64,000 bases of DNA from a virus: IMG/VR virus record IMGVR_UViG_3300012921_000081, positions 1,206-65,205 of that record. One strand, given 5' to 3'. A model generated the notes under the pieces. That model saw only the letters and a list, made by a program, of their open reading frames with translations. It had not been told where the DNA came from and did not search any database. Of the stretch, positions 2,233 to 63,560 are shown in pieces (within the stretch, counting starts at the first letter, position 1; every line of letters begins with the position of its first letter). The translations under genes were made by a program, and so were the position numbers.

Positions 2233-2576
2233 GGGGCCGAACCGGATTCGACCGGGCAGGGAAGACTTGTTGTGGCGCGTCCAGGAGCATGCCGGCCTGG
2301 TAAAAAGCATGCAACACATTGATTGCTGAGCGTAACTACGCACTCGCGGCCTAAGGCCGTGACGTTCCCCGACCGACGCCCGATAGGGCGGGGAACGAAG
2401 CATCGGGCTGGTCGTCGTGTGGTGCTCTCAGGCACGACGATGAGAAACTACTGTGGGCTGGACCAAAGGAAACGCTGTCGTTGGCGGTTCCGCGGTTGAC
2501 GACAAATCAACGACTACACGCGTAGAGGCGACCTGTTGACTGTCTCGGGACGGGGGTTCGATTCCCCCCGGCTCCA
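2233..2576 (+). ncRNA. ssrA: tmRNA (SsrA)
   Basis: 5' GGGGCCGAACCGGATTCGAC, 3' T-arm and acceptor GGGGGTTCGATTCCCCCCGGCTCCA, and an internal tag frame ending YALAA-stop. Confidence 0.96.
2325..2354 (+). other. tmRNA proteolysis-tag reading frame AERNYALAA*
   Basis: GCT GAG CGT AAC TAC GCA CTC GCG GCC TAA. Resume codon inferred by analogy to ANDENYALAA. Confidence 0.85.
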
Positions 2577-3804
2577 TTTCCCCGGAAGCATGCGTCCGAC
2601 CCTTGGGGTTGGACGCTGCTTCAACGGGTGGTTCACGTTTCTCCGCCGGAGATTGCTGAGGCCTCTTGGGCGGGAAAACTGCGAAACCACTCGGTGAGTC
2701 AGCAAGATTTGTCGGAAGGGGCAAGGCCTCAGCACCAACATCTTCGGCGATCTGGCCCCCGGGTGTCAAGTCCATTGGCTCTATTTTTCTGGCCCGCTCC
2801 ATAAACCCATTCAGCCGAGGCAGTTGGTTGGCAGCTTGGGCAAGCGGCAACAGACGCGGGTCCGTGTAGACGTCCATCGTGAGCTTCTCGTCGGTGTGCC
2901 GCATGAGTTTCCTGCGGACGTCGACGTCGATTCCTTGACGCGCCATCTGTGTGTTCACACCCTTCCGCCATCGGTGCCATTGGCCCTTCTCTCCAGCGAC
3001 CTCCTTACCGCGCGCGATGCCGACCGCCTTCATGTCGACTTCCAACGTGTGATGAGACGGCGCACGATCGAAGACCAGCTCGCCCTTGCTGTGGTTTCGC
3101 CAGTCCATCAACAGCGCGACGAGCTCCTCGTTCATCGGGATCAGGTCGTTTCGCTTGGACTTGTCGCCGGTGAGGCGCAGGACCTTCTTGGCGAGGTTGA
3201 TGTCTTCCCAACGCTGGCGCCGTGCCTCGCGATACCGCAGTCCGGACAATGCGAGAAAGCCATAAAACGTCGAGGCGAGCGGGCCCTTGTGTCTTGCCTG
3301 CCAGTTCTCCGCCTCGCGCTTCTCGGCGTTGAGGATGATGGCCTGCATCTGCTCCCACGTGAACGCATCTGCGCCCTTGCCTCGACGACACCGGGGCAGA
3401 CGGATCGCGTCAAACGGGTTGTTGGTGAAGTGGCGCTTCACTTCCAGATAGGCACCGAAGCAACGGACCTGACTGAGTTTGTTCTTCGCCGTCTTCGCGG
3501 CGCCCGGACCTCCAGCGTTGATCTGCTCGGAGAGCCAATCGACCAGACGGTCGGTGCAGAGATCTGCTGTTGTTGACCACTCGAGCTCGGCCGCGATCTG
3601 CCGAACCGTTCGAACGCTCTTGTCCGCATGCTGGCCACTGAACTGCAGCAGCCCGACCATGTGCTTACGCCAAAGTTTGAGCGCGTCCTCGATCGCGATC
3701 GGCGAGAGGCCGACGCGAACGGATGAAACAGGTTTGTCAGCAGCCTCGTGCTGCGGAGAGCATGCCTCCGCGTCCGACTGCGGAGGGGTTTGGCTCGGAG
3801 ACAT
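2428..3804 (-). CDS. int: Tyrosine recombinase/phage integrase; ORF reads through attL into antisense tmRNA
   Basis: Catalytic motifs LSGLRYREA (R), GDKSKR (K), WHRWRK (HxxR), LMRHTD (H), MDVYT (Y). Start taken at ATG 3804 (MSPSQ). Confidence 0.93.
   Translation of the reverse strand: MSPSQTPPQSDAEACSPQHEAADKPVSSVRVGLSPIAIEDALKLWRKHMVGLLQFSGQHADKSVRTVRQIAAELEWSTTADLCTDRLVDWLSEQINAGGPGAAKTAKNKLSQVRCFGAYLEVKRHFTNNPFDAIRLPRCRRGKGADAFTWEQMQAIILNAEKREAENWQARHKGPLASTFYGFLALSGLRYREARRQRWEDINLAKKVLRLTGDKSKRNDLIPMNEELVALLMDWRNHSKGELVFDRAPSHHTLEVDMKAVGIARGKEVAGEKGQWHRWRKGVNTQMARQGIDVDVRRKLMRHTDEKLTMDVYTDPRLLPLAQAANQLPRLNGFMERARKIEPMDLTPGGQIAEDVGAEALPLPTNLADSPSGFAVFPPKRPQQSPAEKREPPVEAASNPKGRTHASGEMEPGGIEPPSRDSQQVASTRVVVDLSSTAEPPTTAFPLVQPTVVSHRRA
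2551..2578 (+). repeat. attL core, 28 bp CGGGGGTTCGATTCCCCCCGGCTCCATT
   Basis: Identical copy at 63070-63097; corresponds to the tmRNA 3' end. Confidence 0.95.
2585..2622 (+). terminator. Strong GC hairpin directly 3' of tmRNA (phage-supplied); no U-tract
   Basis: GAAGCA-TGCGTCCGACCC-TT-GGGGTTGGACGC-TGCTTC folds into a long stem. Terminator function is inferred. Confidence 0.4.
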
Positions 3805-46967: not shown

Positions 46968-47170
46968 CACGCACCGCCTTTCGTCGTCGCCTCGATGGAC
47001 CGCGCACATCGAACCAACTGGAGAAACGGACTCGGCCGACGATTCGGTAGCAACCGATTGAGGTGGACCCAGACGCCAGCCCAGTAGCCAAACATCACGA
47101 ACTTGTACTTCGAGAGCGAAGAGATTGCTTTGCTCGCCGCCTCATCGAGCTCTCTCTCAATGTCCTTCAT
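46967..47170 (-). CDS. Small hypothetical protein
   Basis: Coupled on both sides; KFVMFGYWAGVWVHLNRL. Confidence 0.65.
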   Translation of the reverse strand: MKDIERELDEAASKAISSLSKYKFVMFGYWAGVWVHLNRLLPNRRPSPFLQLVRCARSIEATTKGGA

Positions 47171-47628
47171 TACGCACCATTCCTTGAGTCTTCCGGATGC
47201 TGATGCTCGCGCGGGCCGAGTCGGGTCTTGAATCCGTGCTTGTCACTGGTCAAGTTAAACTTCTCGACCACGGCCGATCCAAGATCGATGTTCAGCTTGC
47301 GGGCCAGTAGATCTGCTGTGATCACAACGTCGGCAAGCTCTCGCCGCATATTGTCTCGATCAATCGATCCTCCCGCGAGCCCGTGCTCGGATCTGATCTG
47401 TTTCTTTATCTGGTTTGCAAGCTCGCCAACTTCGCCGAAGAGTTCCAACAACGCGAACTCGATACCAAACTTCACTCCTTTAGGATTCCACTCCAAGCCA
47501 CGTGCGTCATTCGCGGCCGCAAGCTCGCCGAAGCTGAGGTTGAGAGGTTCGACCACGTCACGGCACTTCGAACACAGTCTCCCGTCATCTTCCTCGTGAT
47601 AGACCCCGCACCTGCAGTAGCCGCTCAT
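47170..47628 (-). CDS. mazG: MazG-like nucleotide pyrophosphohydrolase
   Basis: LELFGEVGELANQIKK...RELADVVITADLLA..LNIDL..AVVEKFN. Confidence 0.88.
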   Translation of the reverse strand: MSGYCRCGVYHEEDDGRLCSKCRDVVEPLNLSFGELAAANDARGLEWNPKGVKFGIEFALLELFGEVGELANQIKKQIRSEHGLAGGSIDRDNMRRELADVVITADLLARKLNIDLGSAVVEKFNLTSDKHGFKTRLGPREHQHPEDSRNGA

Positions 47629-47870
47629 GCAGCGTCCTCCTGAATGGACGGACCGGCAACGGTCGTGTCAGCCACGGGAGCATGAGCCTCATCCAGTTCC
47701 GACCGCAGGACGCGCACGCTCGCCAGTGGCGCCTCGATTCCGATGCGAACTCTCCGGCCGCCTTTCCGCCTCTCGCGGATATCGACGACGTTGATGACGA
47801 TGCTCGGCTTCTTCTCTCCATTGAGGTAGAGATTGATTGATTGGTCCTTCTCACGTGTCAGCACCAGCAT
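47625..47870 (-). CDS. csrA: Carbon storage regulator CsrA/RsmA homolog
   Basis: MLVLTREKDQSI...VRIGIEAP..VRVLRSEL; AAGGAGG RBS. Confidence 0.9.
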   Translation of the reverse strand: MLVLTREKDQSINLYLNGEKKPSIVINVVDIRERRKGGRRVRIGIEAPLASVRVLRSELDEAHAPVADTTVAGPSIQEDAA

Positions 47871-52841: not shown

Positions 52842-54676
52842 TTCAGCCCCGCCGGAAAGAGGATCGGTGCGGCGGTCACCTGGCCACGGCCGCGGACGAT
52901 GAATCCACGTGAGCTGAGTGTTGAGAGGTAGTTGTTGAATGTGCCGCTGACGGCGTAGCCCGTTGCCTTGGCCAAGCTCTCGACGGTGATTGGTTTGTTG
53001 CCGCCCGCGACTCGATACTTAAGCAGCGCATCGAGGATTGATGCGGCGGGTCGATCGAGCGTCGCGATGACTTGATCATGCAGAGCTGCCAGAGTGCGCG
53101 GCGCGTGTGGACGATCGGCGATGTGATGGCCCTGTGCGGTGAGAGCAACGGAGCCGCGGTCCCGCGTGATCAGACCAGCAGTGCTGAGCTGGCTGAGGTA
53201 GTTGTTAAAAGTTCCGCTCACCGCGTAGCCGGCGATTGATGCGGCTTGCGTGACCGTTGGATCTGCGACGCCGATCATCTTCCACCACGCGAGGCCACTG
53301 AGGATCTTGCGACATGGTGCGGACAGGGAACCAGCCCCTCCCTTTACCGCCGTGGCGCTGGCCCGATTGCCAGCGCCGCCGCCGCGTGGGTGCCCACCGA
53401 CCGTCCGAGCGGCACTGACTTGGGATCCGTTTTCCTCGGACTGCTGCGGATCCGCGCCACCAAGGTCGGGCCGGGTTTCCCCGGCGGAGGGCAAGTGGTA
53501 CTTCATTACCTGGGTCGATTCGACATCCCGGATGGAGTCGAGTTCGCCGAGCTGTTGTTCGAGATGGGTGCTTGCAATCCGCAACGCGTCCTGCACAAGC
53601 CGTGCCTTGCCACCAACGAACGTGGCCATCTCCGCGCGTGCCTCTGCGGCTGCCTCCCTGCGAATCGCATCGACGTCGATGGCTGGCGGGAGCAATTCGA
53701 TGCGAGGAAGCGGTTCGGAGTTGCCGCTCGCGCTCAGTCGCGCTTCGAGTTCCGCAACTCGCGCCCGCAACTTCTCCGGGTCGTTGGCTTCCGCCTCAGC
53801 GACTGCCACCGTCATCCTTGCCCGAAGCGCGTCCATGTCGATCGCGGCCGTCGTCACGGACAGGCGCGGAGCATCGTCCGTCGGCGTCGCGCTGCTGTCG
53901 TACGTCGTTATGGCCGGGAACGTCACACGCTTGAGCAATTCCATCGCGGGAAACCAGATCCAACCTTCGCCGCGCTTGAGCCGGGGCAAACCGTGGATGA
54001 CCTCGCGGATGTCCTTCGCTTCAGCCTGGCCCTCGACCCATCGCTCAATCGCCTCGCGATCCTGGGGAGCAACGACCTTCATCGCCACCATCGCCTGGGC
54101 CATGCCGAGCAGGTCCTTGTTGACCTTCGCCGGCCGCTGGCTCGCGAGCACAAGGCGGATGCCTCGGGCGCGGCCGCCCGTCGCCAAACGCTGGAAGCGG
54201 TGCAGCATCCGCTCGTGACCCTTGGGCGGCGTCTGAGGACCAAAAGTGTGGGCCTCATCGATCACGAGGTGCAGGACGCCCGCATTGCGGCGGTAGACGG
54301 TTTCGGCGAAGGCCTCGCCGAACGTGCGCTGCTCGTCGATCAAGAGTTCGGAGACATCGACCACGATCGGCGGCGCGTTCACTTCCGCCGCGAGGCTCGC
54401 GATCGCCTCGCCCATTTGAGCCGCGTCATTCCCGTTGAGAGGGACATCCGCATGGCGACCACCAAACACCACCACGGGAAACCCGGGGCCGGTGCCGGCG
54501 GCGTTGGACTTCAGTCCCCACCACGCGCCGGTCGGGTCAAGCACACATACGCGACGTCCAGCCTCGAGCAAGCGCTCAACGGGACGCTTGATGGTGTAGG
54601 TCTTGCCGCAGCCAGTTGTGCCAAGCACGGCCCAGTGCTGCTGAAGGATCTCTTCGGGAATCTCATAGTGCGACAT
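52838..54676 (-). CDS. HerA/FtsK-like (DUF87) ATPase with two C-terminal wHTH repeats
   Basis: GTTGCGKT, LVIDEAH, GRARG..LASQRP; duplicated GYAVSGTFNNYLS.LS..G.I. Confidence 0.85.
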   Translation of the reverse strand: MSHYEIPEEILQQHWAVLGTTGCGKTYTIKRPVERLLEAGRRVCVLDPTGAWWGLKSNAAGTGPGFPVVVFGGRHADVPLNGNDAAQMGEAIASLAAEVNAPPIVVDVSELLIDEQRTFGEAFAETVYRRNAGVLHLVIDEAHTFGPQTPPKGHERMLHRFQRLATGGRARGIRLVLASQRPAKVNKDLLGMAQAMVAMKVVAPQDREAIERWVEGQAEAKDIREVIHGLPRLKRGEGWIWFPAMELLKRVTFPAITTYDSSATPTDDAPRLSVTTAAIDMDALRARMTVAVAEAEANDPEKLRARVAELEARLSASGNSEPLPRIELLPPAIDVDAIRREAAAEARAEMATFVGGKARLVQDALRIASTHLEQQLGELDSIRDVESTQVMKYHLPSAGETRPDLGGADPQQSEENGSQVSAARTVGGHPRGGGAGNRASATAVKGGAGSLSAPCRKILSGLAWWKMIGVADPTVTQAASIAGYAVSGTFNNYLSQLSTAGLITRDRGSVALTAQGHHIADRPHAPRTLAALHDQVIATLDRPAASILDALLKYRVAGGNKPITVESLAKATGYAVSGTFNNYLSTLSSRGFIVRGRGQVTAAPILFPAGLK

Positions 54677-55856
54677 TCTGTGGTCCTTGTGTTTGTTCGC
54701 CGCGGTCGATGCGCAGCGTGTCGGTGGGCACTTCCAGGGAGACTCCCGCGGCGGCGGCCATCAGCGAGAGGACGCGGAGTTCCAAGTGCGGAGACTGGAG
54801 CTGCTCGATTTCGGTTGTGATCACGGCGCCCGTGGCGAGTGTGCGATTGCTCTCGATGGCGCGCGAAGCCGAACGGCAGAACGCGCCGAATGCGGCGTGG
54901 TCCGCGTGTGACCCCGCGAACCGTTCGGCCCTGCGAACCAACAACGCTCTGAATGCCTCGGCGACAGCGGGCGATGTCGGCGCCGGAGAATCCTGCGTGG
55001 GGGTCTGAGCGCGTGCTCTCGCGGCGAGGCGGCGATTGTCTTCGCGAACCCATGCCTTGTACCCGTCGAGGTGCTCCTCGCCCGTGCGGAGGAACTTCTC
55101 TGCGAGTTTGGCGGGATACACAATCCGCCCTGTCGCGCACGCCGTGTTGAGACGGTCGGCGACGTAGCGCACCTTGGTCATGCTCATGCCTTCGAGATGC
55201 GAGAGCTCGAAGGCAGTCGCGGTGCAGACCCCCAGGTGTTCGATGGCCTCGACGATGGCATCGATTTCATCCGGCGAGAGATTGCTGCCTCCGCCTCCTC
55301 CGCTTTCATGCTCGCGGATACCGCCCGCGTCGGCTGGGTGGGGCTTGGCCTGATGTTGTTGAGGATGTTCTGACTGTTCAGGATGTTCAGGTGCCAAAGC
55401 TCTGACACCTTTGTAATCCTGTTTTGACACCTTAGTTGATCTGGTTTGACACCTTTGTTGAGCAGGTGTGACACCTTTGTGTTGCGAATAAGGTGTCAAA
55501 GCTGTGACACCAATGCATACCCCGGTATCGGCAGTCGCGACGGAACCGAACAAGGTCTGCTGCTGCTCAAGCCAATCGAGCTCGATGCGGATTACGTGCG
55601 TCTGCTTGTACCCCTGGCCGCGACGCACGAAGGAAATCGCACCGACACGTTCAAGTTCGGCAAGGCGGCGAATAACTGTGCTTCGGGAGGCACCCAAAGC
55701 GGTACCGAGTGACTGCAGTGACGGCCGGAGGCACCCGTCGTCCCAACCCATCCACTGCACCATGGCCAGCAGAACATGGCGGAGCTTGGGCTCAAGCCTC
55801 GCACACCCGTTGATTGCTTCGATGGCACGCTGAGGACCAGTGACGGGGCGGCTCAT
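54663..55856 (-). CDS. Phage replication initiator (N-terminal HTH)
   Basis: RPSLQSLGTALGASRSTVIRRLAELERVGAI; iterons inside the gene. Confidence 0.8.
   Translation of the reverse strand: MSRPVTGPQRAIEAINGCARLEPKLRHVLLAMVQWMGWDDGCLRPSLQSLGTALGASRSTVIRRLAELERVGAISFVRRGQGYKQTHVIRIELDWLEQQQTLFGSVATADTGVCIGVTALTPYSQHKGVTPAQQRCQTRSTKVSKQDYKGVRALAPEHPEQSEHPQQHQAKPHPADAGGIREHESGGGGGSNLSPDEIDAIVEAIEHLGVCTATAFELSHLEGMSMTKVRYVADRLNTACATGRIVYPAKLAEKFLRTGEEHLDGYKAWVREDNRRLAARARAQTPTQDSPAPTSPAVAEAFRALLVRRAERFAGSHADHAAFGAFCRSASRAIESNRTLATGAVITTEIEQLQSPHLELRVLSLMAAAAGVSLEVPTDTLRIDRGEQTQGPQNVAL
55390..55511. promoter_or_regulatory. Putative replication origin: TGACACC iterons
   Basis: TGACACC at 55403, 55425, 55447, 55469 (22-bp period) and 55505; inverted copy 55492-55498; AT-richer patch. 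Confidence 0.8.
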
Positions 55857-56137
55857 ACGGGAATCCCCCCGTCGAAGAGCGACCTAGGACCAGCGGCGTT
55901 CCTTGCCTCCGTGGCGACCCCAGGGACCTCCACATCGATTCCGTTCTTGGCCAGGACGCGCACGACCTTCCGAGCCACCAATCGCCACCGTGCCTGGTCA
56001 CGCTCACCCAGCTGCCAATAGCGGAGCTTGCCCCAGCGCTGGATCTCGATCTCGTGTTCGGGGGTGTCGAACGCTTCCGCGATCACGGCGGCGAGGTCTT
56101 CAATGACTTGGTCGTTGTCGTTGTCGGTGGAGGGCAT
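55853..56137 (-). CDS. Small hypothetical protein
   Basis: ORF track; coupled to the initiator gene. Confidence 0.65.
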   Translation of the reverse strand: MPSTDNDNDQVIEDLAAVIAEAFDTPEHEIEIQRWGKLRYWQLGERDQARWRLVARKVVRVLAKNGIDVEVPGVATEARNAAGPRSLFDGGIPV

Positions 56138-56214
56138 CGTGCTCGTCCAGGGAAGGCGGGGATAGAAAGCGACCCGCGCCGCCGGTAGACGGCGCGAGTG
56201 CGGAGGAGAGAGAG

Positions 56215-57306
56215 CTACTTGGTGGAGGCGACCTGCGTGCCAGGGCGAGGGCTCAGCGGCGACGTCGTGCGCGATTGGACCGATTCACGCGTTGCCTCAC
56301 CCCGCGCGGCGGAGGCCTGCTGCATGAAATCGTGTGTGGTGAAGTCGCCCGGCTTCGGGTAGGGAGCACCCTTCGAAAGCGCAACCTCGATTGCAATCGC
56401 CGCGGCCTCGCGGGCAGAGGCCTCCGCCTTCTCCTGTGTGCGGCCATCCGCCATGCACATAGGAAGTTCCTTGGTCCATCCGACGAACCCAACGTCCTTG
56501 TCTGGTTGGATGTGCAGCGTGTACTGGGCGGCGATCTCGCGTGCTCGCGCAAGTGAATCCTGAGACTTGTCAGTCGCCTGCGCCTTTTCAGCTACCTCGG
56601 CCATCATGCCGGCGACGGCCTCGGCCGCTGACCCGCGCGGCGGTGTTGTCGAGGGAGCGCTCGACGGATCCTCGTCGACTTCGCCGTCGGGGAAGAAATC
56701 AGAACCGGTGACGGTCGAGTAGATGTATGCCAGCATCTTCCGCGTTGCCTTGCCAAGGATGGCGTCGACGCCCTGGCCCTTGTTGGTGCGCACAGGGATG
56801 TCGCGATGCAGGTTCTTCTTCTCGCCTTTCAGTTGAAACTCGGCGTCGTACGGAACGACGGCACCCTCAGTCAGGACACGGGGAAGACCAGGCTTCATGA
56901 CGAGATCTGACAGGCCGGGATACTCGCGGACCAAGCGCGTGAAACCTTCGCGCGTGATGTACGTGCGTCCGGCGATGATGTTGAACTCGTTACCGACCGG
57001 CATTACGCCGCGAACGAGGGCCTCAAGCATGCAATCGCGGACGGTCTTGAGCGGATATCCCCCGTCGTCAGCGCGGTCCGTGCGGAACCCCAAGGGGGTG
57101 TCCTGCAGCTCCATGATGTCCAGCATCATCTTGTCACTCAAGTATCCGCGGATCATGCGGATGGCCTGTGACATCACAATGGCCTTCTTGATTGCGGGGA
57201 CCTGCGACAACGCAAGCTCTTTAGCGCTGTCGATGGTCTGCTGAATCTCGACGTACTGCGCTTCTGACTTGTCAGCGACCTTTGCCAACGTATTCGAATC
57301 GTTCAT
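56215..57306 (-). CDS. Putative single-strand annealing recombinase with C-terminal HicB-like domain
   Basis: Follows the RecE-like gene; GNEFNIIAGRTYITREG core; C-terminal YTLHIQPDKDVGFVGWTKELPMCMADGRTQEKAEASAREA (HicB-like). Confidence 0.6.
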   Translation of the reverse strand: MNDSNTLAKVADKSEAQYVEIQQTIDSAKELALSQVPAIKKAIVMSQAIRMIRGYLSDKMMLDIMELQDTPLGFRTDRADDGGYPLKTVRDCMLEALVRGVMPVGNEFNIIAGRTYITREGFTRLVREYPGLSDLVMKPGLPRVLTEGAVVPYDAEFQLKGEKKNLHRDIPVRTNKGQGVDAILGKATRKMLAYIYSTVTGSDFFPDGEVDEDPSSAPSTTPPRGSAAEAVAGMMAEVAEKAQATDKSQDSLARAREIAAQYTLHIQPDKDVGFVGWTKELPMCMADGRTQEKAEASAREAAAIAIEVALSKGAPYPKPGDFTTHDFMQQASAARGEATRESVQSRTTSPLSPRPGTQVASTK

Positions 57307-57411
57307 GTGTGGTTCCTTTCCCGCGAAAGTGCGGAAAGGGGCGTGATGGACTCGAACCATCAAGCGTGGCCAGAACCGTCGCTTCGGCACGACGGAACCC
57401 ACGCCCGCCCC
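57307..57411 (-). ncRNA. tRNA-like element A plus SD-sequestering hairpin (leader of SSAP gene)
   Basis: GGGGCG/CGCCCC closing stem, T-arm GATGG-TTCGAGT-CCATC, 74 nt; followed by CCTTTCCGC-N6-GCGGGAAAGGAACC-ACAC-ATG. Confidence 0.65.
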
Positions 57412-57416
57412 TCGAT

Positions 57417-58316
57417 TCAGTTGTGCGAGGGACCGCCTGTGTAGCGCGACGAGTAGTAAACCCGCAGGTCGATCGGCCGCACCCCAGTTGGGAGGCCGGG
57501 CCATTCACCGGTGCGCAGACACATTGCGTAGTCGTTGAGAGCGCCGCGATATTCCTTCGCCGCGTAGCCCCGCATCAGCGTGTCCACCTCGGTCGTCGGG
57601 TAGTACGCGGCGATCTTGTAGGGTGCGGAGTTCTGAATAGCGAACCACTGGCCTGGCACGTTCTCCCGTCCCAGGATCCGCAGACCTTCCTCCTGCATGT
57701 GATCCTGGATGTGATAGCCGTACTCCCCGATGCTCCGCGCAAATCCGTCGGGAGTTGGGTCAGCGCAGGACTTGAAGTCAACGCGCGTGCCAGCCTTGGA
57801 ACCCTTCGGCCAGATGATCATGTCAGCACGCGCCTTGCAGCGAACGCCAGTCTCGGGGTCCACCCACGTGAAACTCACTTCAACGTTGCAGTCACGACCG
57901 CCGGAGATCCGCTGCTCCATCATGGCGGAGATCTCCGGATGCTTCAGCATGTTCGCGCGAATGCGGCGGATCGCCTGGACATCGTCATCCCAGGCGATGA
58001 TCTTGCCCGGGTGCTTGGCCTGATAGTCCTTGACGCCTTGAGCGTCTCTGGTCTTGTAGATCTCACCATTCGGCTTTGGCGGAGGGGGAATCATCAGCGA
58101 CGGGAGCCGCTCGGGCTCAAGCATCGCGGCATGAAGCAACGTGCCGAAGGCCATCTGGTCCGAAGTCTTTTCCGCTTCGTCGAGGTGCTCACGGACGTCG
58201 GCCATCGACACCCGTGCCCACTTGAGGGCGGAGAAGTTGATGGCCTCCCATTCGTTGTACTCGTGAAATGGAACGCCGAAGTAGATGCCGGGTGGAGGGG
58301 GTGGTACACGATTCAT
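57417..58316 (-). CDS. RecE/exonuclease VIII-like PD-(D/E)XK nuclease (DUF3799-like)
   Basis: INFSALK, MAFGTLLHAAMLEP, EVSFTW..ETGVRCKARAD, DFKS, YGYHIQ. Confidence 0.88.
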   Translation of the reverse strand: MNRVPPPPPGIYFGVPFHEYNEWEAINFSALKWARVSMADVREHLDEAEKTSDQMAFGTLLHAAMLEPERLPSLMIPPPPKPNGEIYKTRDAQGVKDYQAKHPGKIIAWDDDVQAIRRIRANMLKHPEISAMMEQRISGGRDCNVEVSFTWVDPETGVRCKARADMIIWPKGSKAGTRVDFKSCADPTPDGFARSIGEYGYHIQDHMQEEGLRILGRENVPGQWFAIQNSAPYKIAAYYPTTEVDTLMRGYAAKEYRGALNDYAMCLRTGEWPGLPTGVRPIDLRVYYSSRYTGGPSHN

Positions 58317-58350
58317 GACGGGACCTTTCTTCATGGCGCGGAGTGACCGC

Positions 58351-58731
58351 TCACGCGCACTGGTTGGAAACGGGCTGTTGCTGAATGGCGATGACGCCAG
58401 CGATCGCGTCGAGCTCCGCGGCGAGTTGCTGCAGATCCGCCGCTTCGTACTTGGCCACGTGGCCAGCAATGTCACGAAGCGACCTGGCGACGCGCGCGAG
58501 GTTCTTGGCCTGGGATGACTGGCAGATCGCGGCGAACGCGTTGTTGGCCAAGGCCATGACGAACTCGCGTACTTCCGGGGTTGCGGATTCGAGAACACAC
58601 CGACCGCCGTAGTCGGTCGGCTCGTTCTCGTAGGTGGTTGGAGCGTGCCGACTGATAAGCGCATCGGCTTGGTGAGATTTAGACCACGGGAGATACAGCG
58701 GTGCCTGACCGGGAGCGGGGGGAGTGGTCAT
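58351..58731 (-). CDS. Hypothetical protein
   Basis: ORF track; ATGA overlap. Confidence 0.65.
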   Translation of the reverse strand: MTTPPAPGQAPLYLPWSKSHQADALISRHAPTTYENEPTDYGGRCVLESATPEVREFVMALANNAFAAICQSSQAKNLARVARSLRDIAGHVAKYEAADLQQLAAELDAIAGVIAIQQQPVSNQCA

Positions 58732-59036
58732 GCCTGAAGTTCCATGAGTTGAGACTGCAGCTGGTCAAACGCCTGCAGCGCAGCCGGGGGAATGAACGAT
58801 GGGTTGGCGAGGGAGACGACTTCGTGCGGATAGACGGTGTCGGGATCAGTGACGCGCTGCTTGCGCTCAAGCCACTTCCAAGCACGCATGGATCTCACGG
58901 TTCCGTCCCGCCGCAACCGGATCGATCGCACAAGGCAGATCTGCGAGGTCACGGCGGACAGGCGGACGTTGATGATGTCGCCGACCTTGATGGTGAGCAG
59001 CGATCGGTTGTGCCCGCGAATCTGGTGAGAGGTCAT
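58728..59036 (-). CDS. Hypothetical protein
   Basis: Start at ATG 59036 (MTSHQIRG), ATGA-coupled. Confidence 0.6.
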   Translation of the reverse strand: MTSHQIRGHNRSLLTIKVGDIINVRLSAVTSQICLVRSIRLRRDGTVRSMRAWKWLERKQRVTDPDTVYPHEVVSLANPSFIPPAALQAFDQLQSQLMELQA

Positions 59037-59443
59037 GCGCCACCGCCTTCTCGCACGACCTCGTAGCCATCCTGCCTCGACTTTGAGAACCTCTGACCGG
59101 ACGCGATGAACTCTCGAATGAACACAAGTGCGCGACGGCACTGATCGAAGTCGAACATCCCAAAATGGGTGTCGTCTACAGGGATCTTCATCTTCTTCGA
59201 GAGCCACAGATAGGCGTTCCGCCGCCGACGTCCGCGTCCGGTCTTGTGGTCTCTCCACAAAGGGTCGAAGAGACAATGGCACTCATTGCGAATGGTGCGC
59301 GTTTCCTGATCGGCCGGCGTGCTTGTCCGACCGTCCCAGCATCCAACGGTGCAACCGGGGTACGTGCACGCGTGGAACACGCCGTAGCGCGTATTGCGAG
59401 GTTGCAATACCACCGCGTGCTTCGGGCAGGTGAGCACGGTCAT
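59033..59443 (-). CDS. Zinc-finger protein (DUF3268-like)
   Basis: CPKH...C..PGC..GC...A....R..R..CH..FDPLW...AY.WL...M.I....H.GMFD..QC. Confidence 0.75.
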   Translation of the reverse strand: MTVLTCPKHAVVLQPRNTRYGVFHACTYPGCTVGCWDGRTSTPADQETRTIRNECHCLFDPLWRDHKTGRGRRRRNAYLWLSKKMKIPVDDTHFGMFDFDQCRRALVFIREFIASGQRFSKSRQDGYEVVREGGGA

Positions 59444-60318
59444 GTGCCACCTCCCGACTTGGAAGCCATGGCCTTGCACGCGGCGACAAGGTCAGCTGTC
59501 GCCTTGGCTTTCTTGGCGTAGTCGTCCTTGATCTTCGCGATCTGCTCGTCGGCATATGCCCCGTCGTTGTCGTGCACGCGCTCAAGCTTCTCGATCACAT
59601 CGGCAGGAACCGGAATGCCAAGCCGAACGCACGACCGCACCAGCTCGACGTGGAGACGACTAAATCCACTCGCTCGATTCTCGTCGAACACCCGCGCTGC
59701 AATCTTGGTCGCCTCCGCGAGCGCTTCTTCGTATGACGTGCAGGGGATACACGTGTACCTGCCACAACCACTGCCGTCGTTGTAATCGTGAATCTTCCAT
59801 GACAGATCGCCCTGGGAGGATCCGTAGAGCGTCAGGAGCTTGAACTCTTGCGGAACCCTGCCGTAATGATCCGGCTTGCCGGACCTGGACTGAGGGATGA
59901 TCTCAAGACCGTCGTACTGCTCTCGCACAAAGTGCGTGACCTTGCCATCGATGAAGTCCTGAATGCGCGACAGGGCGGGAATGGCCGTTGTCTTGGCGAG
60001 CGCGGCAGCAAGCGACGTTTCAGCCCCGCGAATCTTGCTCGTGAGGTCGTTCAGTGTCTGCCGGGCATCTTCTGCGCGTTTCTCAAGGTCGATCGCGATC
60101 TCGTGCCGCTTTGGAACCCATGGGGATGTGAACGCCTGGCTAAGCACCACCGGGTACTCGGACGCGCGCACGCCGTAGTCATCGTCGGTGAACAGCTGTG
60201 CGGCCACGATTCCGTGAGCGGTCCAAGCGAGCATTTGGTACGCGTTGCCCTGATCATCGAAGATGTTCGACCCTTCCGGAGTCGATGTGTCGACAAGGTT
60301 GGCGGGTGCATCACTCAT
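59440..60318 (-). CDS. Hypothetical protein
   Basis: 292 aa; coupled on both sides. Confidence 0.75.
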   Translation of the reverse strand: MSDAPANLVDTSTPEGSNIFDDQGNAYQMLAWTAHGIVAAQLFTDDDYGVRASEYPVVLSQAFTSPWVPKRHEIAIDLEKRAEDARQTLNDLTSKIRGAETSLAAALAKTTAIPALSRIQDFIDGKVTHFVREQYDGLEIIPQSRSGKPDHYGRVPQEFKLLTLYGSSQGDLSWKIHDYNDGSGCGRYTCIPCTSYEEALAEATKIAARVFDENRASGFSRLHVELVRSCVRLGIPVPADVIEKLERVHDNDGAYADEQIAKIKDDYAKKAKATADLVAACKAMASKSGGGT

Positions 60319-60647
60319 GCCACACCCCCAGCCGCGGCCTTCTTGGTCATCGCGACCGCAGCCGCGAGATAGAGTTCTGCTTGCCGCTGGAGCGCCTTTG
60401 ACTCGCTGACGAAGATCTCGTCAGTGTCGATCGCACGTTCGTGAGCACTGCGCGGATTTGAGCAGTAGTCGATGAAAGCCCAGCCGTCACTTGGCGAATG
60501 CCCGAAGCCGACGCCACACCTCGACACTTCGAACCGCGGCGCATCGCTTGACGTGCTTCGGACCCACCACACGTCCGAAGTCGTTATGTCCTTCGCCGCG
60601 ACGCCGTCGGCCGTCACCAGTTCTCCGATTGTGGGTGCATACTTCAT
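60315..60647 (-). CDS. Hypothetical protein
   Basis: ORF track; coupled. Confidence 0.65.
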   Translation of the reverse strand: MKYAPTIGELVTADGVAAKDITTSDVWWVRSTSSDAPRFEVSRCGVGFGHSPSDGWAFIDYCSNPRSAHERAIDTDEIFVSESKALQRQAELYLAAAVAMTKKAAAGGVA

Positions 60648-60853
60648 GCCGCACCCCCGACTACCTTGCCATTGCGACAGATCGCGATCACGGTCTCAGA
60701 GTGGAGGAGTGGACCTGCGGCGCACACGCGGAAGCTGCTGCAGTCGGATGGCTGGACCAGCATCACGGGGTCATGTGCGATTGCGGAACACGCGCGGGCA
60801 TGTGCCACTGCCAGGTCGAGCGAGTCAAACGTGGAAGGAAGGTGCTCGTTCAA
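60644..60853 (-). CDS. Small hypothetical protein
   Basis: ORF track; coupled. Confidence 0.6.
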   Translation of the reverse strand: MNEHLPSTFDSLDLAVAHARACSAIAHDPVMLVQPSDCSSFRVCAAGPLLHSETVIAICRNGKVVGGAA

Positions 60854-62181
60854 GCCGCACCTCCAGCCTGTGCCGCAAGGGTCTTGGTGCTGACAACGCG
60901 GCCTTCTTCCAGGATGATGTTCTGACCTTCCGCAGCCTTGGCTGTGGCGACTTCGAGGATGAGCTGGAAGCCGAACTGGTGAGCGAGGTCGCGCAACATG
61001 GCGATCGTCGGTCCCTGCATGACATCGGCGTCACGGAACAGCATCACGCGGAGGTGCGGAGACTGACGCATTGCCACGTGGGCCGACACCAGGATCTGCG
61101 TGGCGCGGTTCACCTGGCTGAACAGCACGCCGTTCACGCGGAGGTTGCCCTCATCGTCAAACGCCAGGCCCTTGACCGGGATCTTCGTGTTCTTCAGCAG
61201 TTCGCGCTTGCGCTCGCCGATGTCCTCGATGCGACGCTGCTGCTCTTCATACTGCCGCGCCTTGATATCACGCCGCTCCAGAAGCCGGCGACGCTCCTGG
61301 CGCTGCCGCGCGGTTCTGTTCAGTTGGTCGATCTCGCCAAGCTGCTTCTCAATTGCAGAGACATCCGGATCAATAAGCGCCTCAATGGTGGGAGCGACGG
61401 GGCCGAGATCGGCGACGGCCGCGGCGTGCTTAGCCTTAGCCGAAGCGAGCTCCCGCTCCAGGGATTCGATAATCGTCTCAATGCTCTTGATGGTGTTGCG
61501 GCTGTCAGCAAGCCACTGGCGCTGAAGGTTGTTGTCGCGGATCTTTGCAAGCGCGCTTGCGTGTTCCTCGCGCAGTTGAGCGGCGTTGGTTTCCTCGTCG
61601 GGACCCTTGATGTCTGGAACGAGCGTCAGAGCGCCCTCGATCGACTTGAGCTCGACACCGGCGTCGCGGCGGAGCATGGTCGCATCGGCGAGCGCCGTGT
61701 CGAGAGCGGCGAACGCATCGGTCAGCCCGAGGACACGCCGCATCTCGTCGGCCTGGTCGCGCGGCTTGAGCCGGTAGAACTCACCAACGTCAAAGCAGCG
61801 TTCTGCCCGGAGCAGTTCCAGGAACCGCTGCGGCGGCATGTCAATCGGATTGCCTTCGCTGTCGGTGATCTTGACGGTGCGCGTGCCCTTCGCGGTCTGT
61901 GTTGCAGAGACGGTGTAACCGCTCAGCTTCCCAAGCACCTTGCACTTGTCCGCACCGATGCGCACGGGCTCGACGTTCGTGCCGTTCTTCTCGCCGAGCA
62001 TGAACTGGATGGCGTCGAGGAATGAAGTCTTCCCGGATCCGTTTGGCCCGGATACTTCGACGGTGTCTGCCTCCAAGTCCACCTGCAGGAAGCGGATGCC
62101 CTGGAAGTTTTCAATCGTGAGAGCGATGAGCTGCTGCGGCGCGACGTCGGGTACGTTCGAATCAAGTGCCTTGCTGACCAT
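60850..62181 (-). CDS. SMC/Rad50-like AAA ATPase
   Basis: LTIENFQGI, GPNGSGKTS, long coiled coil, C-terminal ABC half with degenerate signature (FSQVNRATQ). Confidence 0.85.
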   Translation of the reverse strand: MVSKALDSNVPDVAPQQLIALTIENFQGIRFLQVDLEADTVEVSGPNGSGKTSFLDAIQFMLGEKNGTNVEPVRIGADKCKVLGKLSGYTVSATQTAKGTRTVKITDSEGNPIDMPPQRFLELLRAERCFDVGEFYRLKPRDQADEMRRVLGLTDAFAALDTALADATMLRRDAGVELKSIEGALTLVPDIKGPDEETNAAQLREEHASALAKIRDNNLQRQWLADSRNTIKSIETIIESLERELASAKAKHAAAVADLGPVAPTIEALIDPDVSAIEKQLGEIDQLNRTARQRQERRRLLERRDIKARQYEEQQRRIEDIGERKRELLKNTKIPVKGLAFDDEGNLRVNGVLFSQVNRATQILVSAHVAMRQSPHLRVMLFRDADVMQGPTIAMLRDLAHQFGFQLILEVATAKAAEGQNIILEEGRVVSTKTLAAQAGGAA

Positions 62182-62296
62182 TGTCTGGTTCCTTTCCCGC
62201 GGTATTGCGGAAAGGCGTGGGGAGGGGTCGAACCTCCCGGAGCCCGTGCGTCGTCCCGAAGAAGGTCTCGAAGGGACGACGTGCCCACACACGCCT
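62182..62296 (-). ncRNA. tRNA-like element B plus SD-sequestering hairpin (leader of SMC-like ATPase gene)
   Basis: AGGCGTG/CACGCCT 7-bp closing stem, T-arm GGGAGG-TTCGACC-CCTCCC; followed by CCTTTCCGC-N6-GCGGGAAAGGAACC-AGACA-ATG. Confidence 0.65.
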
Positions 62297-62314
62297 CAAT
62301 GCGTGTGGGGCTGA

Positions 62315-62845
62315 TCAGTTGTCGCGAGAGATCTGGGAGTCGCGGAGGCGGTCGTAGTCCTCGATCTCTGGCGCGGCGTCGCGTTCGTAGAACTTGCCGC
62401 AGTCATCACATTCGAGGCCGCCGTTGCATGCGGACATTCCGACTTCGGGATCCGCCTGCGATGGCGACGAATCAATGAACTTGGTGCAACCGCAATCGCC
62501 ACAGACGGGCGCGTCGAAGTCGAACTCGGGAGTTACCACAGGAGCGGAGACCTTGCGGGCGAAGGTCTTGATCACCTGGTCGGTGTCACGAAGGCGACGA
62601 AACAGCGCGGCATCGGCTTGGGTTCTGCAAGCTTGGCACAAGACAGCGCAGTACTCCCCGGAATCGCCGCGGCTGCCGGTGCTGAGCTTGCCGCACTCGA
62701 TGCAGGGGCGGAGAGAAACGGCCGGGGCAGGCGAGCCTTGCGACTCGCCCGCGCCCGGCACTCGGGGGGGGCGGCTGTAATCGGCGACGATCTTGGGAGC
62801 GATCACCCCAACGACCTCGTCGAGGTTCGCCTCGGCCCGGGTCAT
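62315..62845 (-). CDS. Multi-zinc-finger hypothetical protein (first early gene)
   Basis: CIEC...C...CQAC and CGDC...CDDC pairs; ATG at 62845. Confidence 0.6.
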   Translation of the reverse strand: MTRAEANLDEVVGVIAPKIVADYSRPPRVPGAGESQGSPAPAVSLRPCIECGKLSTGSRGDSGEYCAVLCQACRTQADAALFRRLRDTDQVIKTFARKVSAPVVTPEFDFDAPVCGDCGCTKFIDSSPSQADPEVGMSACNGGLECDDCGKFYERDAAPEIEDYDRLRDSQISRDN

Positions 62846-63069
62846 TGCCCCGTTCACGCGGGCGGCGGACCGGGCCAGCAGATCGGTCCCAAGACGCGCG
62901 GACGGGCAGACACGGTCGGGGATCAGGGCGGCGGGGAGGGCGGAACGGGAGGAGCGGGAGGGGCATTCCATGCCTGGCTTCCTTTCGGGAGCCGGAGGCA
63001 TGCTTCAAGGGTGTCCAAGGTCCGCCTATAGGCATCTAGGATGCCCAAGATGACCTCGGGTGATAGAGC

Positions 63070-63097
63070 CGGGGGTTCGATTCCCCCCGGCTCCATT
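63070..63097 (+). repeat. attR core (displaced tmRNA 3' end)
   Basis: 28/28 identical to 2551-2578. Confidence 0.95.
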
Positions 63098-63313
63098 GTT
63101 TCGCTTCAGCTTCACCGGCTTGGGGTGCGCGCGGGAAGCCTGTCGCGCAGATTTGCGCCCGCTCGATGGTGACGTCGCCGCCGTCCGCCAGCAGCTGTCC
63201 TGGACGAACCAGTATCACGGGTCCGACGAATCGACCGTGCCGCTGGCGTCGGTGTCGGTGTCCTTGCCGGTCGACGGCTCAGCGCGCGATCTGCTCGTCC
63301 GCCCGGTCGGCGG

Positions 63314-63560
63314 GCAACACACCATCATCCTCCCAAAGCGTCGGATGATGGTGGCACATGCAGAGCCGTGTCAACTCCGGTGATCGGGCCACCTGCCCGA
63401 CAAACATCCGCTGGGCCCGTTCACGCGACACGGGTGAGTCGCTGCGGAGCTGCTGCCCGGCAGGGTCGCGCCCGGTGCAACACACCATCATCCTCCCAAA
63501 GCGTCGGATGATGGTAGCACATTCAGAGCCGTGTCAACTTCGGTGATCGGGCCACCTGCC
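63314..63560. repeat. Two 84-bp direct repeats (63314-63397, 63477-63560) with an internal 10-bp inverted repeat
   Basis: 3 mismatches between copies; ACCATCATCC-N12-GGATGATGGT in each. Confidence 0.85.

What the first reader, a model, noticed from the sequence alone, without database searches (positions are those of the whole stretch)
57307..57411. tRNA-like leader A coupled to a Shine-Dalgarno-sequestering hairpin
Seen (minus strand): GGGGCGGGCGTGGGTTCCGTCGTGCCGAAGCGACGGTTCTGGCCACGCTTGATGGTTCGAGTCCATCACGCCCC (74 nt) fills the recE-SSAP gap. It has an acceptor-like stem and a perfect T-arm (GATGG-TTCGAGT-CCATC), with a single long arm in place of the D and anticodon arms. Its 3' end overlaps the 5' arm of CCTTTCCGC-N6-GCGGGAAAGG, which pairs over the RBS of the next gene. 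Established: RNase P, RNase Z and the CCA enzyme recognise the acceptor+T-arm half. Inference: a processing-gated or protein-gated translational switch, and/or release of a tRNA-mimic small RNA. I do not recognise this as a named RNA family.
Basis: partly seen in the sequence, partly recalled or inferred. Interest (0 to 1): 0.9.

Follow-up and report, generated by a model that had tools for sequence, protein, structure and literature searches.

The report
tRNA-top-half-like structured leader in prophage mRNA
The gap between two early genes of this prophage holds a real, evolutionarily conserved folded RNA that copies the upper half of a tRNA and is followed by a small invariant hairpin and the ribosome-binding site. 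It is in no RNA family database, its function is untested, and it most likely marks a cutting point in the long early message.

Summary
On the minus strand, 57413-57336 folds into a three-way junction: P1 GAGGGGCG/CGCCCCUU, a long arm P2, and P3 UGAUGG-UUCGAGU-CCAUCA. P3 abuts P1 with no spacer. One base further on lie the hairpin P4 (CCGC-N6-GCGG), the Shine-Dalgarno (SD) sequence and ATG 57306.

A second copy, noted earlier by the scan on this same window, lies at 62297-62197 before an SMC-like ATPase gene. I found 15 distinct copies at these two syntenic gaps in about 8 rare related phages.

- **Structure:** helices P1-P3 are kept by compensatory changes: 94.8% of cells paired against 77.7% in shuffles, and 17 of 28 pairs changed on both sides. 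G·U pairs outnumber A·C by 33 to 3, which places the fold in the sense-strand RNA.
- **Not a tRNA:** ARAGORN finds nothing, and the best Rfam match is tRNA-Sec at 22-23 bits against a threshold of 47. There is no D arm or anticodon arm.
- **T-loop:** the consensus is exact in both window copies but relaxed in most relatives.
- **SD sequestration:** this is not a conserved feature. The SD is mostly unpaired in the predicted ensembles.

The best reading (about 0.4) is a tRNA-like processing signal, like plant-mitochondrial t-elements. Cutting there would leave the downstream mRNA starting with a protective hairpin. It is a new RNA family, a new variant of a known kind, and no RNA data were available to test it.

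The parts
57417..57419 (-). Stop codon (TGA) of the RecE-like PD-(D/E)XK exonuclease gene, 3 nt upstream of P1.
   Evidence: Matches DUF3799 and phrog_412 (exonuclease VIII). The called product is 305 aa.
57406..57413 (-). Copy A, P1 5' strand GAGGGGCG. This is the acceptor-like stem: 6 G-C pairs plus A-U and G·U.
   Evidence: P1 is 99% paired across 15 copies, and 4 of its 7 modelled pairs change on both sides.
57363..57405 (-). Copy A, P2 long arm: GGCGUGG/CCACGCU, an internal loop, then CCGUCGU-GCCGAA-GCGACGG. It stands where the D and anticodon arms of a tRNA would be.
   Evidence: The sequence differs in every lineage, but a hairpin is always kept.
57344..57362 (-). Copy A, P3 T-arm-like hairpin UGAUGG-UUCGAGU-CCAUCA. 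It abuts the P1 3' strand with zero unpaired bases.
   Evidence: P3 is 97% paired, and 4 of its 5 modelled pairs change on both sides. The loop matches GGTTCRANYCC.
57336..57343 (-). Copy A, P1 3' strand CGCCCCUU. Its last 4 bases are also the 5' part of the possible anti-SD (anti-Shine-Dalgarno) pairing.
57321..57334 (-). Copy A, P4 hairpin CCGC-ACUUUC-GCGG. The stem is invariant in all 15 copies, and it lies 1 nt after P1.
   Evidence: This tail is 86-91% identical, against 53-73% for the flanking genes. L266 extends the stem by a co-inserted A..U pair.
57304..57320 (-). Copy A, Shine-Dalgarno region (GAAAGGAA) and start codon ATG (57306-57304) of the 363-aa SSAP-like/HicB-like gene.
62197..62297 (-). 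Copy B, same architecture: P1 GAGGCGUG/CACGCCUU, P2, P3 GGGAGG-UUCGACC-CCUCCC, and P4 CCGC-AAUACC-GCGG. It lies before the SMC-like ATPase gene (ATG 62181-62179).
   Evidence: The covariance model R1 scores it 51.9 bits, E 2e-12. Its best Rfam match is tRNA-Sec at 23.3 bits.

Best explanation
The element is a cis-acting structured module of the early polycistronic mRNA, found in a small clade of temperate phages that integrate into the tmRNA gene.

**Shown:**
- It is a three-way junction in which P1 and P3 are contiguous on the 3' strand. They can therefore stack into a 12-14 bp minihelix capped by a T-loop-like 6-7 nt loop, the shape of the acceptor/T-arm half of a tRNA.
- P2 varies in sequence and length.
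- A sequence-invariant hairpin P4 follows after 1-2 nt, and then comes an open Shine-Dalgarno (SD) sequence.

**Inferred mechanism:**
- Host tRNA end-processing nucleases read the minihelix as a pre-tRNA. These would be RNase P at the conserved GA|GG on the 5' side and RNase Z or an equivalent just after P1 on the 3' side.
- The cuts punctuate the polycistron. The upstream cistron gets a defined 3' end.
- A tRNA-like RNA of about 75-90 nt may be released.
- The downstream mRNA then starts almost directly with hairpin P4. That would shield its 5' end and leave the SD free.

Pairing of the SD with the pyrimidine tail of P1 is possible, but it is a secondary feature that is lineage-specific.
For: - **Real, selected RNA structure.** Each of the 13 copies tested was folded alone, and 12 give the same junction plus P4; window copy B's minimum-energy fold differs. 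Covariation statistics support it. G·U/U·G pairs number 33 against 3 A·C/C·A, which puts the fold on the mRNA sense strand.
- **tRNA-top-half geometry.** No spacer lies between P3 and the P1 3' strand in any of the 15 copies. G(+1)-C and the preceding A-U pair are invariant.
- **T-loop.** Both window copies match the T-arm word GGTTCRANYCC that was used to find plant t-elements (PMC1920247). U54 and A58 are kept in all A-type copies, and R57 in all copies.
- **Rfam.** tRNA-Sec is the top hit out of 4227 families for both window copies, although their cores are only moderately alike. Scores are 21.9 and 23.3 bits, E 0.12 and 0.05.
- **P4 position.** It sits at a fixed 1-2 nt after P1 and is under sequence constraint.
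- **SD.** It is mostly unpaired in the predicted ensembles.
- **Host CCA.** The host tmRNA gene does not encode CCA at attL or attR. The host therefore must mature and CCA-tail at least this tRNA-like 3' end after transcription.
- **Clade-specific insertion.** In the more distant phage L267 the exonuclease and SSAP-like genes overlap by 4 nt with no leader.
Against: - No RNA data exist: no transcript ends, no cleavage and no small RNA have been shown.
- The T-loop identity is relaxed in most relatives: UGCGAGU/C (U55G), UUUGAGC (C56U), and a 6-nt GUCGAA or AUCGAA loop in seven B-type lineages.
- tRNA models give no hit in the relatives.
- The stack is 14 bp if the A-U and G·U pairs form. The predicted -1 base would then be paired.
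- The strict sequence conservation of P4 and of CACGCC..UUUCCGCA is not explained by shape-reading nucleases. It hints at a sequence-specific partner.
- The covariation counts were made on an alignment fitted to the model. The 15 copies come from only about 8 lineages, several of them close.
Confidence: 0.4

Rival explanations
1. It is a protein-bound translational operator. A phage or host RNA-binding protein recognises the sequence-invariant tail (CACGCC..UUUCCGCA-N4-CGCGG) presented on the three-way-junction scaffold. It co-regulates translation or stability of the two downstream genes, the SMC-like ATPase and the SSAP-like protein.
For: - The tail is 86-91% identical across lineages whose flanking genes are 53-73% identical, and it is identical between the two paralogous copies.
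- The P4 stem never varies, while its central loop bases do.
- Two different genes share the same leader.
- The phage encodes a CsrA homologue, and the Shine-Dalgarno (SD) regions carry GGA.
Against: - No candidate protein was linked to the element.
- The P4 loops carry no GGA, so P4 is not a typical CsrA hairpin.
- A protein operator does not explain the zero-spacer P1/P3 stack or the T-loop-like loop.
- CsrA was not seen in the stretches of the relatives that I hold.
Confidence: 0.22
2. It is a passive structural module. A very stable, self-contained fold blocks 3'-exonucleases at the end of the upstream cistron. It also insulates the downstream ribosome-binding site from GC-rich upstream sequence, so the Shine-Dalgarno (SD) sequence stays single-stranded. 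No trans factor is needed.
For: - The folds are very stable (-41 to -53 kcal/mol), and the SD is predicted 80-98% unpaired in most copies.
- The element sits between a stop codon and the next SD.
- The P2 sequence varies freely.
Against: - A mere barrier would not need a fixed three-way architecture, a zero-spacer P1/P3 junction, the conserved loop bases R57 and A58, or an invariant P4 sequence.
- Only two gaps of the operon carry it.
Confidence: 0.15
3. It is a conformational switch. The outer half of P1 (pseudo-SD GAGG paired to CCUU) competes with pairing of the same CCUU(U) to the true Shine-Dalgarno (SD) sequence. A ligand, a protein, or ribosomes terminating on the upstream gene would tip the balance.
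For: - The two pairings are mutually exclusive.
- The sequestered state costs 0 kcal/mol in copy B of the window and 1.4-2.1 kcal/mol in B-type relatives.
- In A-type copies the upstream stop codon lies 3 nt (6 nt in L262) before P1, within reach of a terminating ribosome.
Against: - In A-type copies the sequestered state costs 0.8-6.1 kcal/mol (3.9 in copy A), and the anti-SD match is poor in relatives.
- Junction strands vary from 0 to 6 nt and are not conserved, unlike a ligand pocket.
- In B-type copies the stop codon is 16-20 nt away from P1.
- Any pyrimidine-rich strand will pair to an SD, so the complementarity is cheap.
Confidence: 0.12
4. It is a processive antiterminator RNA, like HK022 put. 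The nascent structure modifies RNA polymerase so that it reads through downstream terminators of the early operon.
For: - There are two copies per phage, in early transcripts.
- A strong terminator-like hairpin lies at 56199-56172 (minus strand), just after the gene that follows copy A.
Against: - No matching terminator was found in relatives L003 and L004.
- The two copies lie in series in one operon.
- The architecture (an enclosed three-way junction) differs from the two open stem-loops of put as I recall them; that recollection was not tested here.
Confidence: 0.05
5. It is a decayed tRNA gene or tRNA-derived remnant with no present function.
For: It is 74 nt long and has a T-arm and an acceptor-like stem. 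Phages often carry tRNA genes.
Against: - Structure-preserving compensatory changes occur at two paralogous sites in about 8 lineages.
- The core sequence has diverged to 51-64% identity while 95% of pairs are kept.
- No trace of an anticodon or D arm appears in any copy.
Confidence: 0.03

Closest known systems
t-elements of plant mitochondria: tRNA-like processing signals inside mRNA precursors (Forner et al. 2007, PMC1920247)
   Same: - A non-decoding tRNA-like fold with an acceptor-like stem and a T-arm, embedded between coding regions of a polycistronic transcript.
- Both window copies carry the GGTTCRANYCC word that was used to find t-elements.
- The proposed role is the same: RNase P and RNase Z cleavage creates the mRNA 3' and 5' ends.
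   Different: - This element is in a bacterial virus, not an organelle.
- It has no cloverleaf remnants; a single arm stands in place of the D and anticodon arms.
- The T-loop consensus is relaxed in most relatives.
- It is coupled to an invariant hairpin and a Shine-Dalgarno sequence.
- Processing is not shown here.
C4 antisense RNA of phages P1/P7 and CI RNA of satellite phage P4. These are RNase P-matured regulatory RNAs cut out of the operon they control. This description is from my own knowledge; C4 is in Rfam.
   Same: A phage-encoded structured RNA embedded in an early or immunity transcript. The acceptor-like stem would make it an RNase P substrate.
   Different: - No Rfam hit to C4.
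- No conserved complementarity between the element's loops and other sites of the operon.
- The element lies directly on a ribosome-binding site rather than upstream of separate target sites.
mascRNA/MALAT1-type tRNA-like modules and bacterial YrlA/Y RNAs (tRNA mimics; PMC4201824 was listed but not read)
   Same: A tRNA-like acceptor/T-arm module inside a longer transcript that is not a decoding tRNA.
   Different: - Those mimics keep cloverleaf-like D and anticodon-arm analogues; this element has none.
- No Ro60 or RtcB gene was seen among the annotated genes.
- No Rfam hit to these families for the window's copies.
- A separate element in the distant phage locus L014 does hit mascRNA weakly.
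tRNA-like domain of tmRNA
   Same: An acceptor stem plus a T-arm, with one long helix leaving where the anticodon stem would be. The prophage sits in the tmRNA gene.
   Different: - The sequence is unrelated to the host tmRNA ends: GGGGGUUCGAUUCCCCC against GAUGGUUCGAGUCCAUC.
- There is no D-loop analogue, no encoded tag and no 3' terminus.
- ARAGORN's tmRNA mode finds nothing.

Membership tests
tRNA (Rfam CL00001; ARAGORN) | Detected above threshold by tRNA gene finders or covariance models | tested here: not met
   ARAGORN finds 0 genes in the window and in all 13 copies tested, even at lowered thresholds. The best Rfam match is tRNA-Sec at 21.9 and 23.3 bits against a gathering score of 47. 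The relatives give no hit.
tRNA (Rfam CL00001; ARAGORN) | D arm, plus an anticodon arm with a 5-bp stem and 7-nt loop | tested here: not met
   One arm of variable length and sequence replaces both. Its loops are 6-15 nt with no conserved anticodon-loop form. The mitochondrial armless-tRNA mode of ARAGORN gives only sporadic, inconsistent calls.
tRNA-like processing signals (t-elements) | T-arm with the GGTTCRANYCC motif | tested here: inconclusive
   Met exactly in window copies A and B, L007A and L262A, and with a covaried outer pair in L006A. Not met in the rest: U55G in L003A, L004A, L253A and L265A; C56U in L266A; and a 6-nt G/AUCGAA loop in the B-type relatives.
tRNA-like processing signals (t-elements) | Acceptor-like stem contiguous with the T-stem, giving a minihelix of about 12 bp | tested here: met
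   No spacer lies between P3 and the P1 3' strand in any of the 15 copies. P3 is 6 bp; P1 is 6 G-C pairs in the A type or 6-7 core pairs in the B type, plus A-U and G·U.
tRNA-like processing signals (t-elements) | Transcript ends coincide with the element's ends (RNase P / RNase Z cleavage) | not testable with these tools
   No run on record as RNA holds the stretch. The wastewater 'RNA-Seq' runs are probably DNA and are kept only as contigs.
C4/CI-type RNase P-matured antisense RNAs | Loop sequences complementary to target sites in the same operon | tested here: not met
   The only recurrent 9-nt complementarity, between the A and B copies, reflects their shared P2 5' strand. No conserved target was found in the window, L003, L004 or L253.
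Riboswitch with an SD-sequestering expression platform | Conserved junction or pocket nucleotides, and a competitive SD-sequestered alternative fold | tested here: not met
   The junction strands are 0-6 nt long and not conserved. The sequestered state costs 0.8-6.1 kcal/mol in A-type copies, and the Shine-Dalgarno (SD) sequence is 80-98% unpaired in most copies. It is competitive only in B-type copies.
Any Rfam 15 family | Match at or above the gathering score | tested here: not met
   The only gathering-level hit in the 64-kb window is the host tmRNA at 2233-2579.

The most novel reading that the evidence does not exclude
Temperate phages of GC-rich soil and wastewater bacteria use tRNA punctuation, as mitochondria do. 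A tRNA-top-half mimic recruits host RNase P and RNase Z to cut the early polycistron. This creates hairpin-capped mRNAs that can be translated. It also releases a stable, perhaps CCA-tailed, tRNA-like small RNA that has a role of its own, for example as a decoy for host enzymes or defence nucleases that act on tRNA acceptor ends.
Probability: 0.12. Interest if true: 0.8.

Novelty: new variant of a known kind. Interest (0 to 1): 0.55.

Why it matters
If the module is cut by tRNA-processing enzymes, it would be a bacterial-virus counterpart of organellar tRNA punctuation. It would show how a phage can set the stoichiometry and stability of individual early mRNAs without extra promoters or terminators.

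It also gives a compact natural part: a processing signal, a 5' protective hairpin and an open ribosome-binding site. Even without that mechanism, it is an uncatalogued RNA motif supported by covariation. It precedes two recombination/repair-type genes in a phage group that lacks an obvious cI/Cro switch.

This scan has noted tRNA-minihelix-like intergenic RNAs in other, unrelated phages. Those notes are AI notes that I did not check, so the phenomenon may be wider than this clade.

Tried and rejected
- **Exact-pattern scans.** The conserved tail (CACGCC N0-2 TTTCCGCA N4 CGCGG) found only L008 (= L004) as a true copy in viral contigs. In genome contigs all 117 hits were chance.
- **The search for related loci** with the two flanking proteins in viral contigs found nothing.
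- **Model R1** on distant RecE/SMC-type phage loci L014, L015, L264 and L267 found no copy.
- **Expression data.** Two run searches and one read-laying run gave no usable RNA evidence; the runs are probably DNA and are kept as contigs only.
- **Trans-acting antisense targets.** No conserved ones were found.
- **Pseudoknots between the P4 loop and other loops.** By eye there were only inconsistent 4-5 nt matches. AUGUC:GACAU is perfect in L007 and L262 but absent elsewhere, so I dropped the idea.
- **Intrinsic terminator or sigma-70 promoter inside the elements.** None in the window. The scan flags the B-type P2 hairpin of relatives as weakly terminator-like, but its U-rich tail is paired within P2.
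- **Copy of the tmRNA ends or an attP remnant.** Rejected on sequence and strand.
- **Failed scripts.** One constraint script did not enforce pairing and was redone properly.

Full report
**1. What is in the sequence**

All positions here are on the minus strand. The gap between the stop codon of a RecE-like PD-(D/E)XK exonuclease gene and the ATG of the next gene is 110 nt. The stop codon TGA is at 57419-57417. The exonuclease matches DUF3799 and PHROG 412 'exonuclease VIII', and its called product is 305 aa. The next gene starts at ATG 57306-57304 and encodes 363 aa, with weak leads to RecT/Rad52-type annealases and a HicB-like C-terminal domain.

Folded alone, the region gives the following (-57.3 kcal/mol, z = -3.57, 0 of 200 shuffles as stable):
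- **P1**, GAGGGGCG/CGCCCCUU (57413-57406 with 57343-57336).
- **P2**, a long arm with an internal loop (57405-57363).
- **P3**, UGAUGG-UUCGAGU-CCAUCA (57362-57344). It abuts the P1 3' strand without any spacer.
- **P4**, after one U: the small hairpin CCGC-ACUUUC-GCGG (57334-57321).
- **Shine-Dalgarno (SD) sequence and start codon**, GAAAGGAA followed by the ATG.

ARAGORN finds no tRNA in the window. The only gathering-level Rfam hit in the 64 kb is the host tmRNA at 2233-2579. The window is an IMG/VR provirus integrated in that tmRNA gene. A second copy of the tmRNA 3' end lies at about 63066-63093.

**2. It is a family, not a one-off**

A second copy lies at 62297-62197 before an SMC-like ATPase gene (ATG 62181). 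The scan had already noted this copy on the same window. It has the same architecture and an identical CCUUUCCGC-N6-GCGGGAAAGGAACCA tail.

Protein searches with the three flanking genes found a handful of rare metagenomic relatives, about 70% identical in the exonuclease and ATPase and 52-54% in the 363-aa protein. Their contigs keep the gene order: integrase, small gene, [element B], ATPase, small genes, exonuclease, [element A], SSAP-like gene.

I extracted 15 distinct full copies:
- **A type:** window, L003, L004, L006, L007, L253, L262, L265, L266.
- **B type:** window, L003, L004, L005, L253, L260.
- Truncated B copies also occur in L006 and L262.

Each of the 13 copies tested was folded on its own, and 12 give the same three-way junction plus P4 as the minimum-energy structure. 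The exception is window copy B. A covariance model built from A-type copies only (R1) finds the B-type copies at E 1e-8 to 1e-12. It finds nothing else in the window, and nothing in the more distant phage loci L014, L015, L264 and L267. In L267 the exonuclease and SSAP-like genes overlap by 4 nt. The leader is therefore an insertion specific to this clade.

**3. Evidence that the fold is selected and acts as RNA**

These counts are on the 15-copy alignment A6:

| Measure | Observed | Controls |
|---|---|---|
| Pair cells forming standard pairs | 94.8% | 77.7 ± 1.4% in 500 shuffles (0 reach it); 39-60% when partners are slid by 1-3 columns |
| Pairs with changes on both sides | 17 of 28 | mean 11.8 in shuffles |
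| Helices P1, P2a, P2b, P3: pairs changed on both sides | 4 or 5 each | not applicable |

Examples of compensatory change:
- P1 position 4 is G-C in most copies, A-U in L004 and L265, and G·U in L262.
- P1 position 6 is G-C, but A-U in L266.
- P3 is UGAUGG/CCAUCA in the window, UGGCGG/CCGCCA in L004, UGGCCG/CGGCCA in L006, and GCGAGG/CCUCGC in B-type relatives.

Two caveats apply. The alignment was fitted to the model, which biases the counts toward it. The copies also come from only about 8 lineages, some of them close.

Other lines of evidence:
- **Strand.** G·U/U·G cells number 33, against 3 A·C/C·A. The pairing therefore works on the gene-sense strand as RNA and would not work on the complementary strand.
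- **Sequence divergence.** Compared with the window, the relatives are 53-73% identical in the flanking 120 nt of coding sequence and 51-64% in the P1-P3 core. The shape is kept while the sequence drifts.
- **The tail is different.** The 21-23 nt tail (end of P1 plus P4) is 86-91% identical.
- **P4.** Its stem never varies, so ordinary covariation is silent about it. L266, however, carries a co-inserted A on the 5' side and U on the 3' side, which lengthens the stem by one pair.
- **Close relatives in wastewater runs.** A contig spanning 57197-57473 has all of its 10 substitutions in the coding part and none in the element.

**4. How tRNA-like is it?**

In favour:
- The P3 and P1 3' strands are contiguous in all 15 copies. 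P3 is 6 bp and the G-C core of P1 is 6 bp, so a 12-bp coaxial minihelix like acceptor plus T-stem is possible. It is extended by an invariant A-U and a G·U.
- The base that would be +1 is an invariant G paired to C.
- The P3 loop is 7 nt in all A-type copies and in window copy B.
- U54 and A58 are kept in all A-type copies, and R57 in every copy.
- Both window copies match GGTTCRANYCC, the word used to find plant mitochondrial t-elements (PMC1920247).
- tRNA-Sec is the best Rfam match for both window copies, although they are diverged from each other. Scores are 21.9 bits (E 0.12) and 23.3 bits (E 0.05) in 901-nt searches.

Against:
- These scores are far below the gathering score of 47.
- The relatives give no tRNA-clan hit.
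- ARAGORN finds nothing even with relaxed thresholds, and its mitochondrial mode gives only inconsistent calls.
- There is no D arm or anticodon arm.
- The T-loop consensus is relaxed: UGCGAGU/C in four A-type copies, UUUGAGC in L266, and a 6-nt G/AUCGAA loop in all B-type relatives. L007 and L262 also have a bulged C in P3.

I therefore describe the element as a mimic of the top half of a tRNA, with variable fidelity. It is not a tRNA and not a decayed one.

**5. The 'SD-sequestering hairpin'**

It competes with the outer four pairs of P1. The predictions are these:
- In copy A, the SD bases are 82-98% unpaired in the ensemble.
- Enforcing the CC:GG pairing costs +3.9 kcal/mol in copy A.
- In other A-type copies it costs +0.8 to +6.1 kcal/mol, and in B-type relatives +1.4 to +2.1.
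- In window copy B it costs 0, and the sequestered fold is the minimum-energy structure there.
- In the A-type relatives the SD (GGAG) lies 1-5 nt downstream of the conserved 4-bp hairpin.

SD sequestration is therefore not the conserved feature. What is conserved is a small hairpin placed 1-2 nt after P1 and just before an open SD. A switch between the pseudo-SD:anti-SD pairing (P1) and anti-SD:SD remains possible, mainly for B-type copies.

**6. Mechanism**

I rank a processing (punctuation) signal read by tRNA end-processing nucleases first, at about 0.4. The shown facts it explains are:
- the shape conservation alongside free sequence drift of P2;
- the zero-spacer stack of P1 on P3;
- the T-loop-like loop;
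- the conserved GA|GG at the would-be RNase P site;
- the fixed position of P4. A cut just after P1 would leave an mRNA that starts with a hairpin and at most 1-2 unpaired bases. From general knowledge of RNase E and 5'-end-dependent decay, that arrangement protects a monophosphorylated 5' end.

The host must also mature a tRNA-like 3' end that lacks an encoded CCA. The tmRNA gene reads ...GGCUCCA-UU at both attL and attR. This is compatible with an RNase Z-type pathway, although I could not identify the host.

Every enzymatic step here is inference. No RNA data were available.

The strong sequence conservation of the tail is the main fact this model does not explain, and it keeps a sequence-specific protein operator alive as a rival (0.22). 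The other rivals are a passive barrier/insulator (0.15), a conformational switch (0.12), a put-like antiterminator (0.05) and a decayed tRNA (0.03). I found no support for three further ideas:
- a C4/CI-type antisense role, since no conserved complementarity exists;
- a terminator or promoter within the element;
- any relation to the tmRNA ends.

**7. Comparison and novelty**

By mechanism, the closest known system is the t-element (tRNA-like processing signals in plant mitochondrial transcripts, PMC1920247). Next come the RNase P-matured phage RNAs C4 and CI; that comparison rests on my own knowledge.

Membership in the tRNA family fails on its defining features. Membership in the 't-element-like' class is met for the minihelix, partly met for the T-arm word, and untestable for the cleavage itself.

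The family is absent from Rfam 15. Earlier AI notes of this scan report tRNA-minihelix-like intergenic RNAs in unrelated phages (for example e1-3599947). I did not check those, and they are not independent support.

I class this as a new variant of a known kind, with interest 0.55. It is a solid new structured-RNA family with a plausible, testable and somewhat unusual mechanism, but there is no functional evidence and its distribution is narrow.

Noticed in passing
L014:11302-11365 (+), a distant phage with RecE-like, SMC-like, RecT and CsrA genes: A separate, non-homologous tRNA-like three-way junction (GGCAGG...GGGG-UUCGACU-CCCC-A-CCUGCC) lies in the 197-nt gap just upstream of a phage csrA gene. 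Its best Rfam matches are mascRNA at 17.8 bits (E 0.46) and tRNA-Sec at 15.6 bits. ARAGORN does not call it, and model R1 does not hit it.
   Followed up: partly
window 2233-2579 (+) and 63066-63093 (+): The prophage is integrated in the 3' end of the tmRNA gene. The shared core GGGGGTTCGATTCCCCCCGGCTCCATT appears at both ends. Neither copy encodes CCA after the discriminator A. The tag reading frame ends ...AERNYALAA.
   Followed up: partly
L267:2311-3962, and protein P0032: In a more distant phage the exonuclease and the SSAP-like gene overlap by 4 nt, which implies translational coupling. P0032 (557 aa, NCBI) appears to fuse a DUF3799 exonuclease domain to the same SSAP-like domain. Both facts support a functional exonuclease/annealase pair.
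   Followed up: no
window 55403-55480: Three to four 22-bp-spaced direct repeats (TGACACCTTTGT...) lie inside or next to the gene for a replication-initiator-like HTH protein (54663-55856, minus strand). They look like origin iterons.
   Followed up: no
window 56172-56199 (-): A strong terminator-like hairpin (12 pairs, 9 of them G-C, tail CGCTTTCTAT) lies directly after the SSAP-like gene that follows element A. No counterpart was found in L003 or L004.
   Followed up: partly
window 63314-63397 and 63477-63560 (+): Two 84-nt direct repeats, 96% identical and 163 nt apart, lie in the host flank just outside attR. Each contains an inverted repeat (CACCATCATCC...GGATGATGGTG). They are unexplained.
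   Followed up: no
window 47625-47870 (-) and 47170-47628 (-): The phage encodes a CsrA homologue (Pfam E 7e-11), followed by a MazG-like pyrophosphohydrolase. CsrA genes also occur in the distant phage loci L014, L015 and L267.
   Followed up: partly
window 55500-63200, laid against runs X2-X5 (wastewater): Close relatives (95-99% identical) of this biocrust-derived provirus occur in wastewater runs labelled RNA-Seq but probably DNA. Within one contig the element has 0 differences, against 10 in the adjacent 100 nt of coding sequence.
   Followed up: partly
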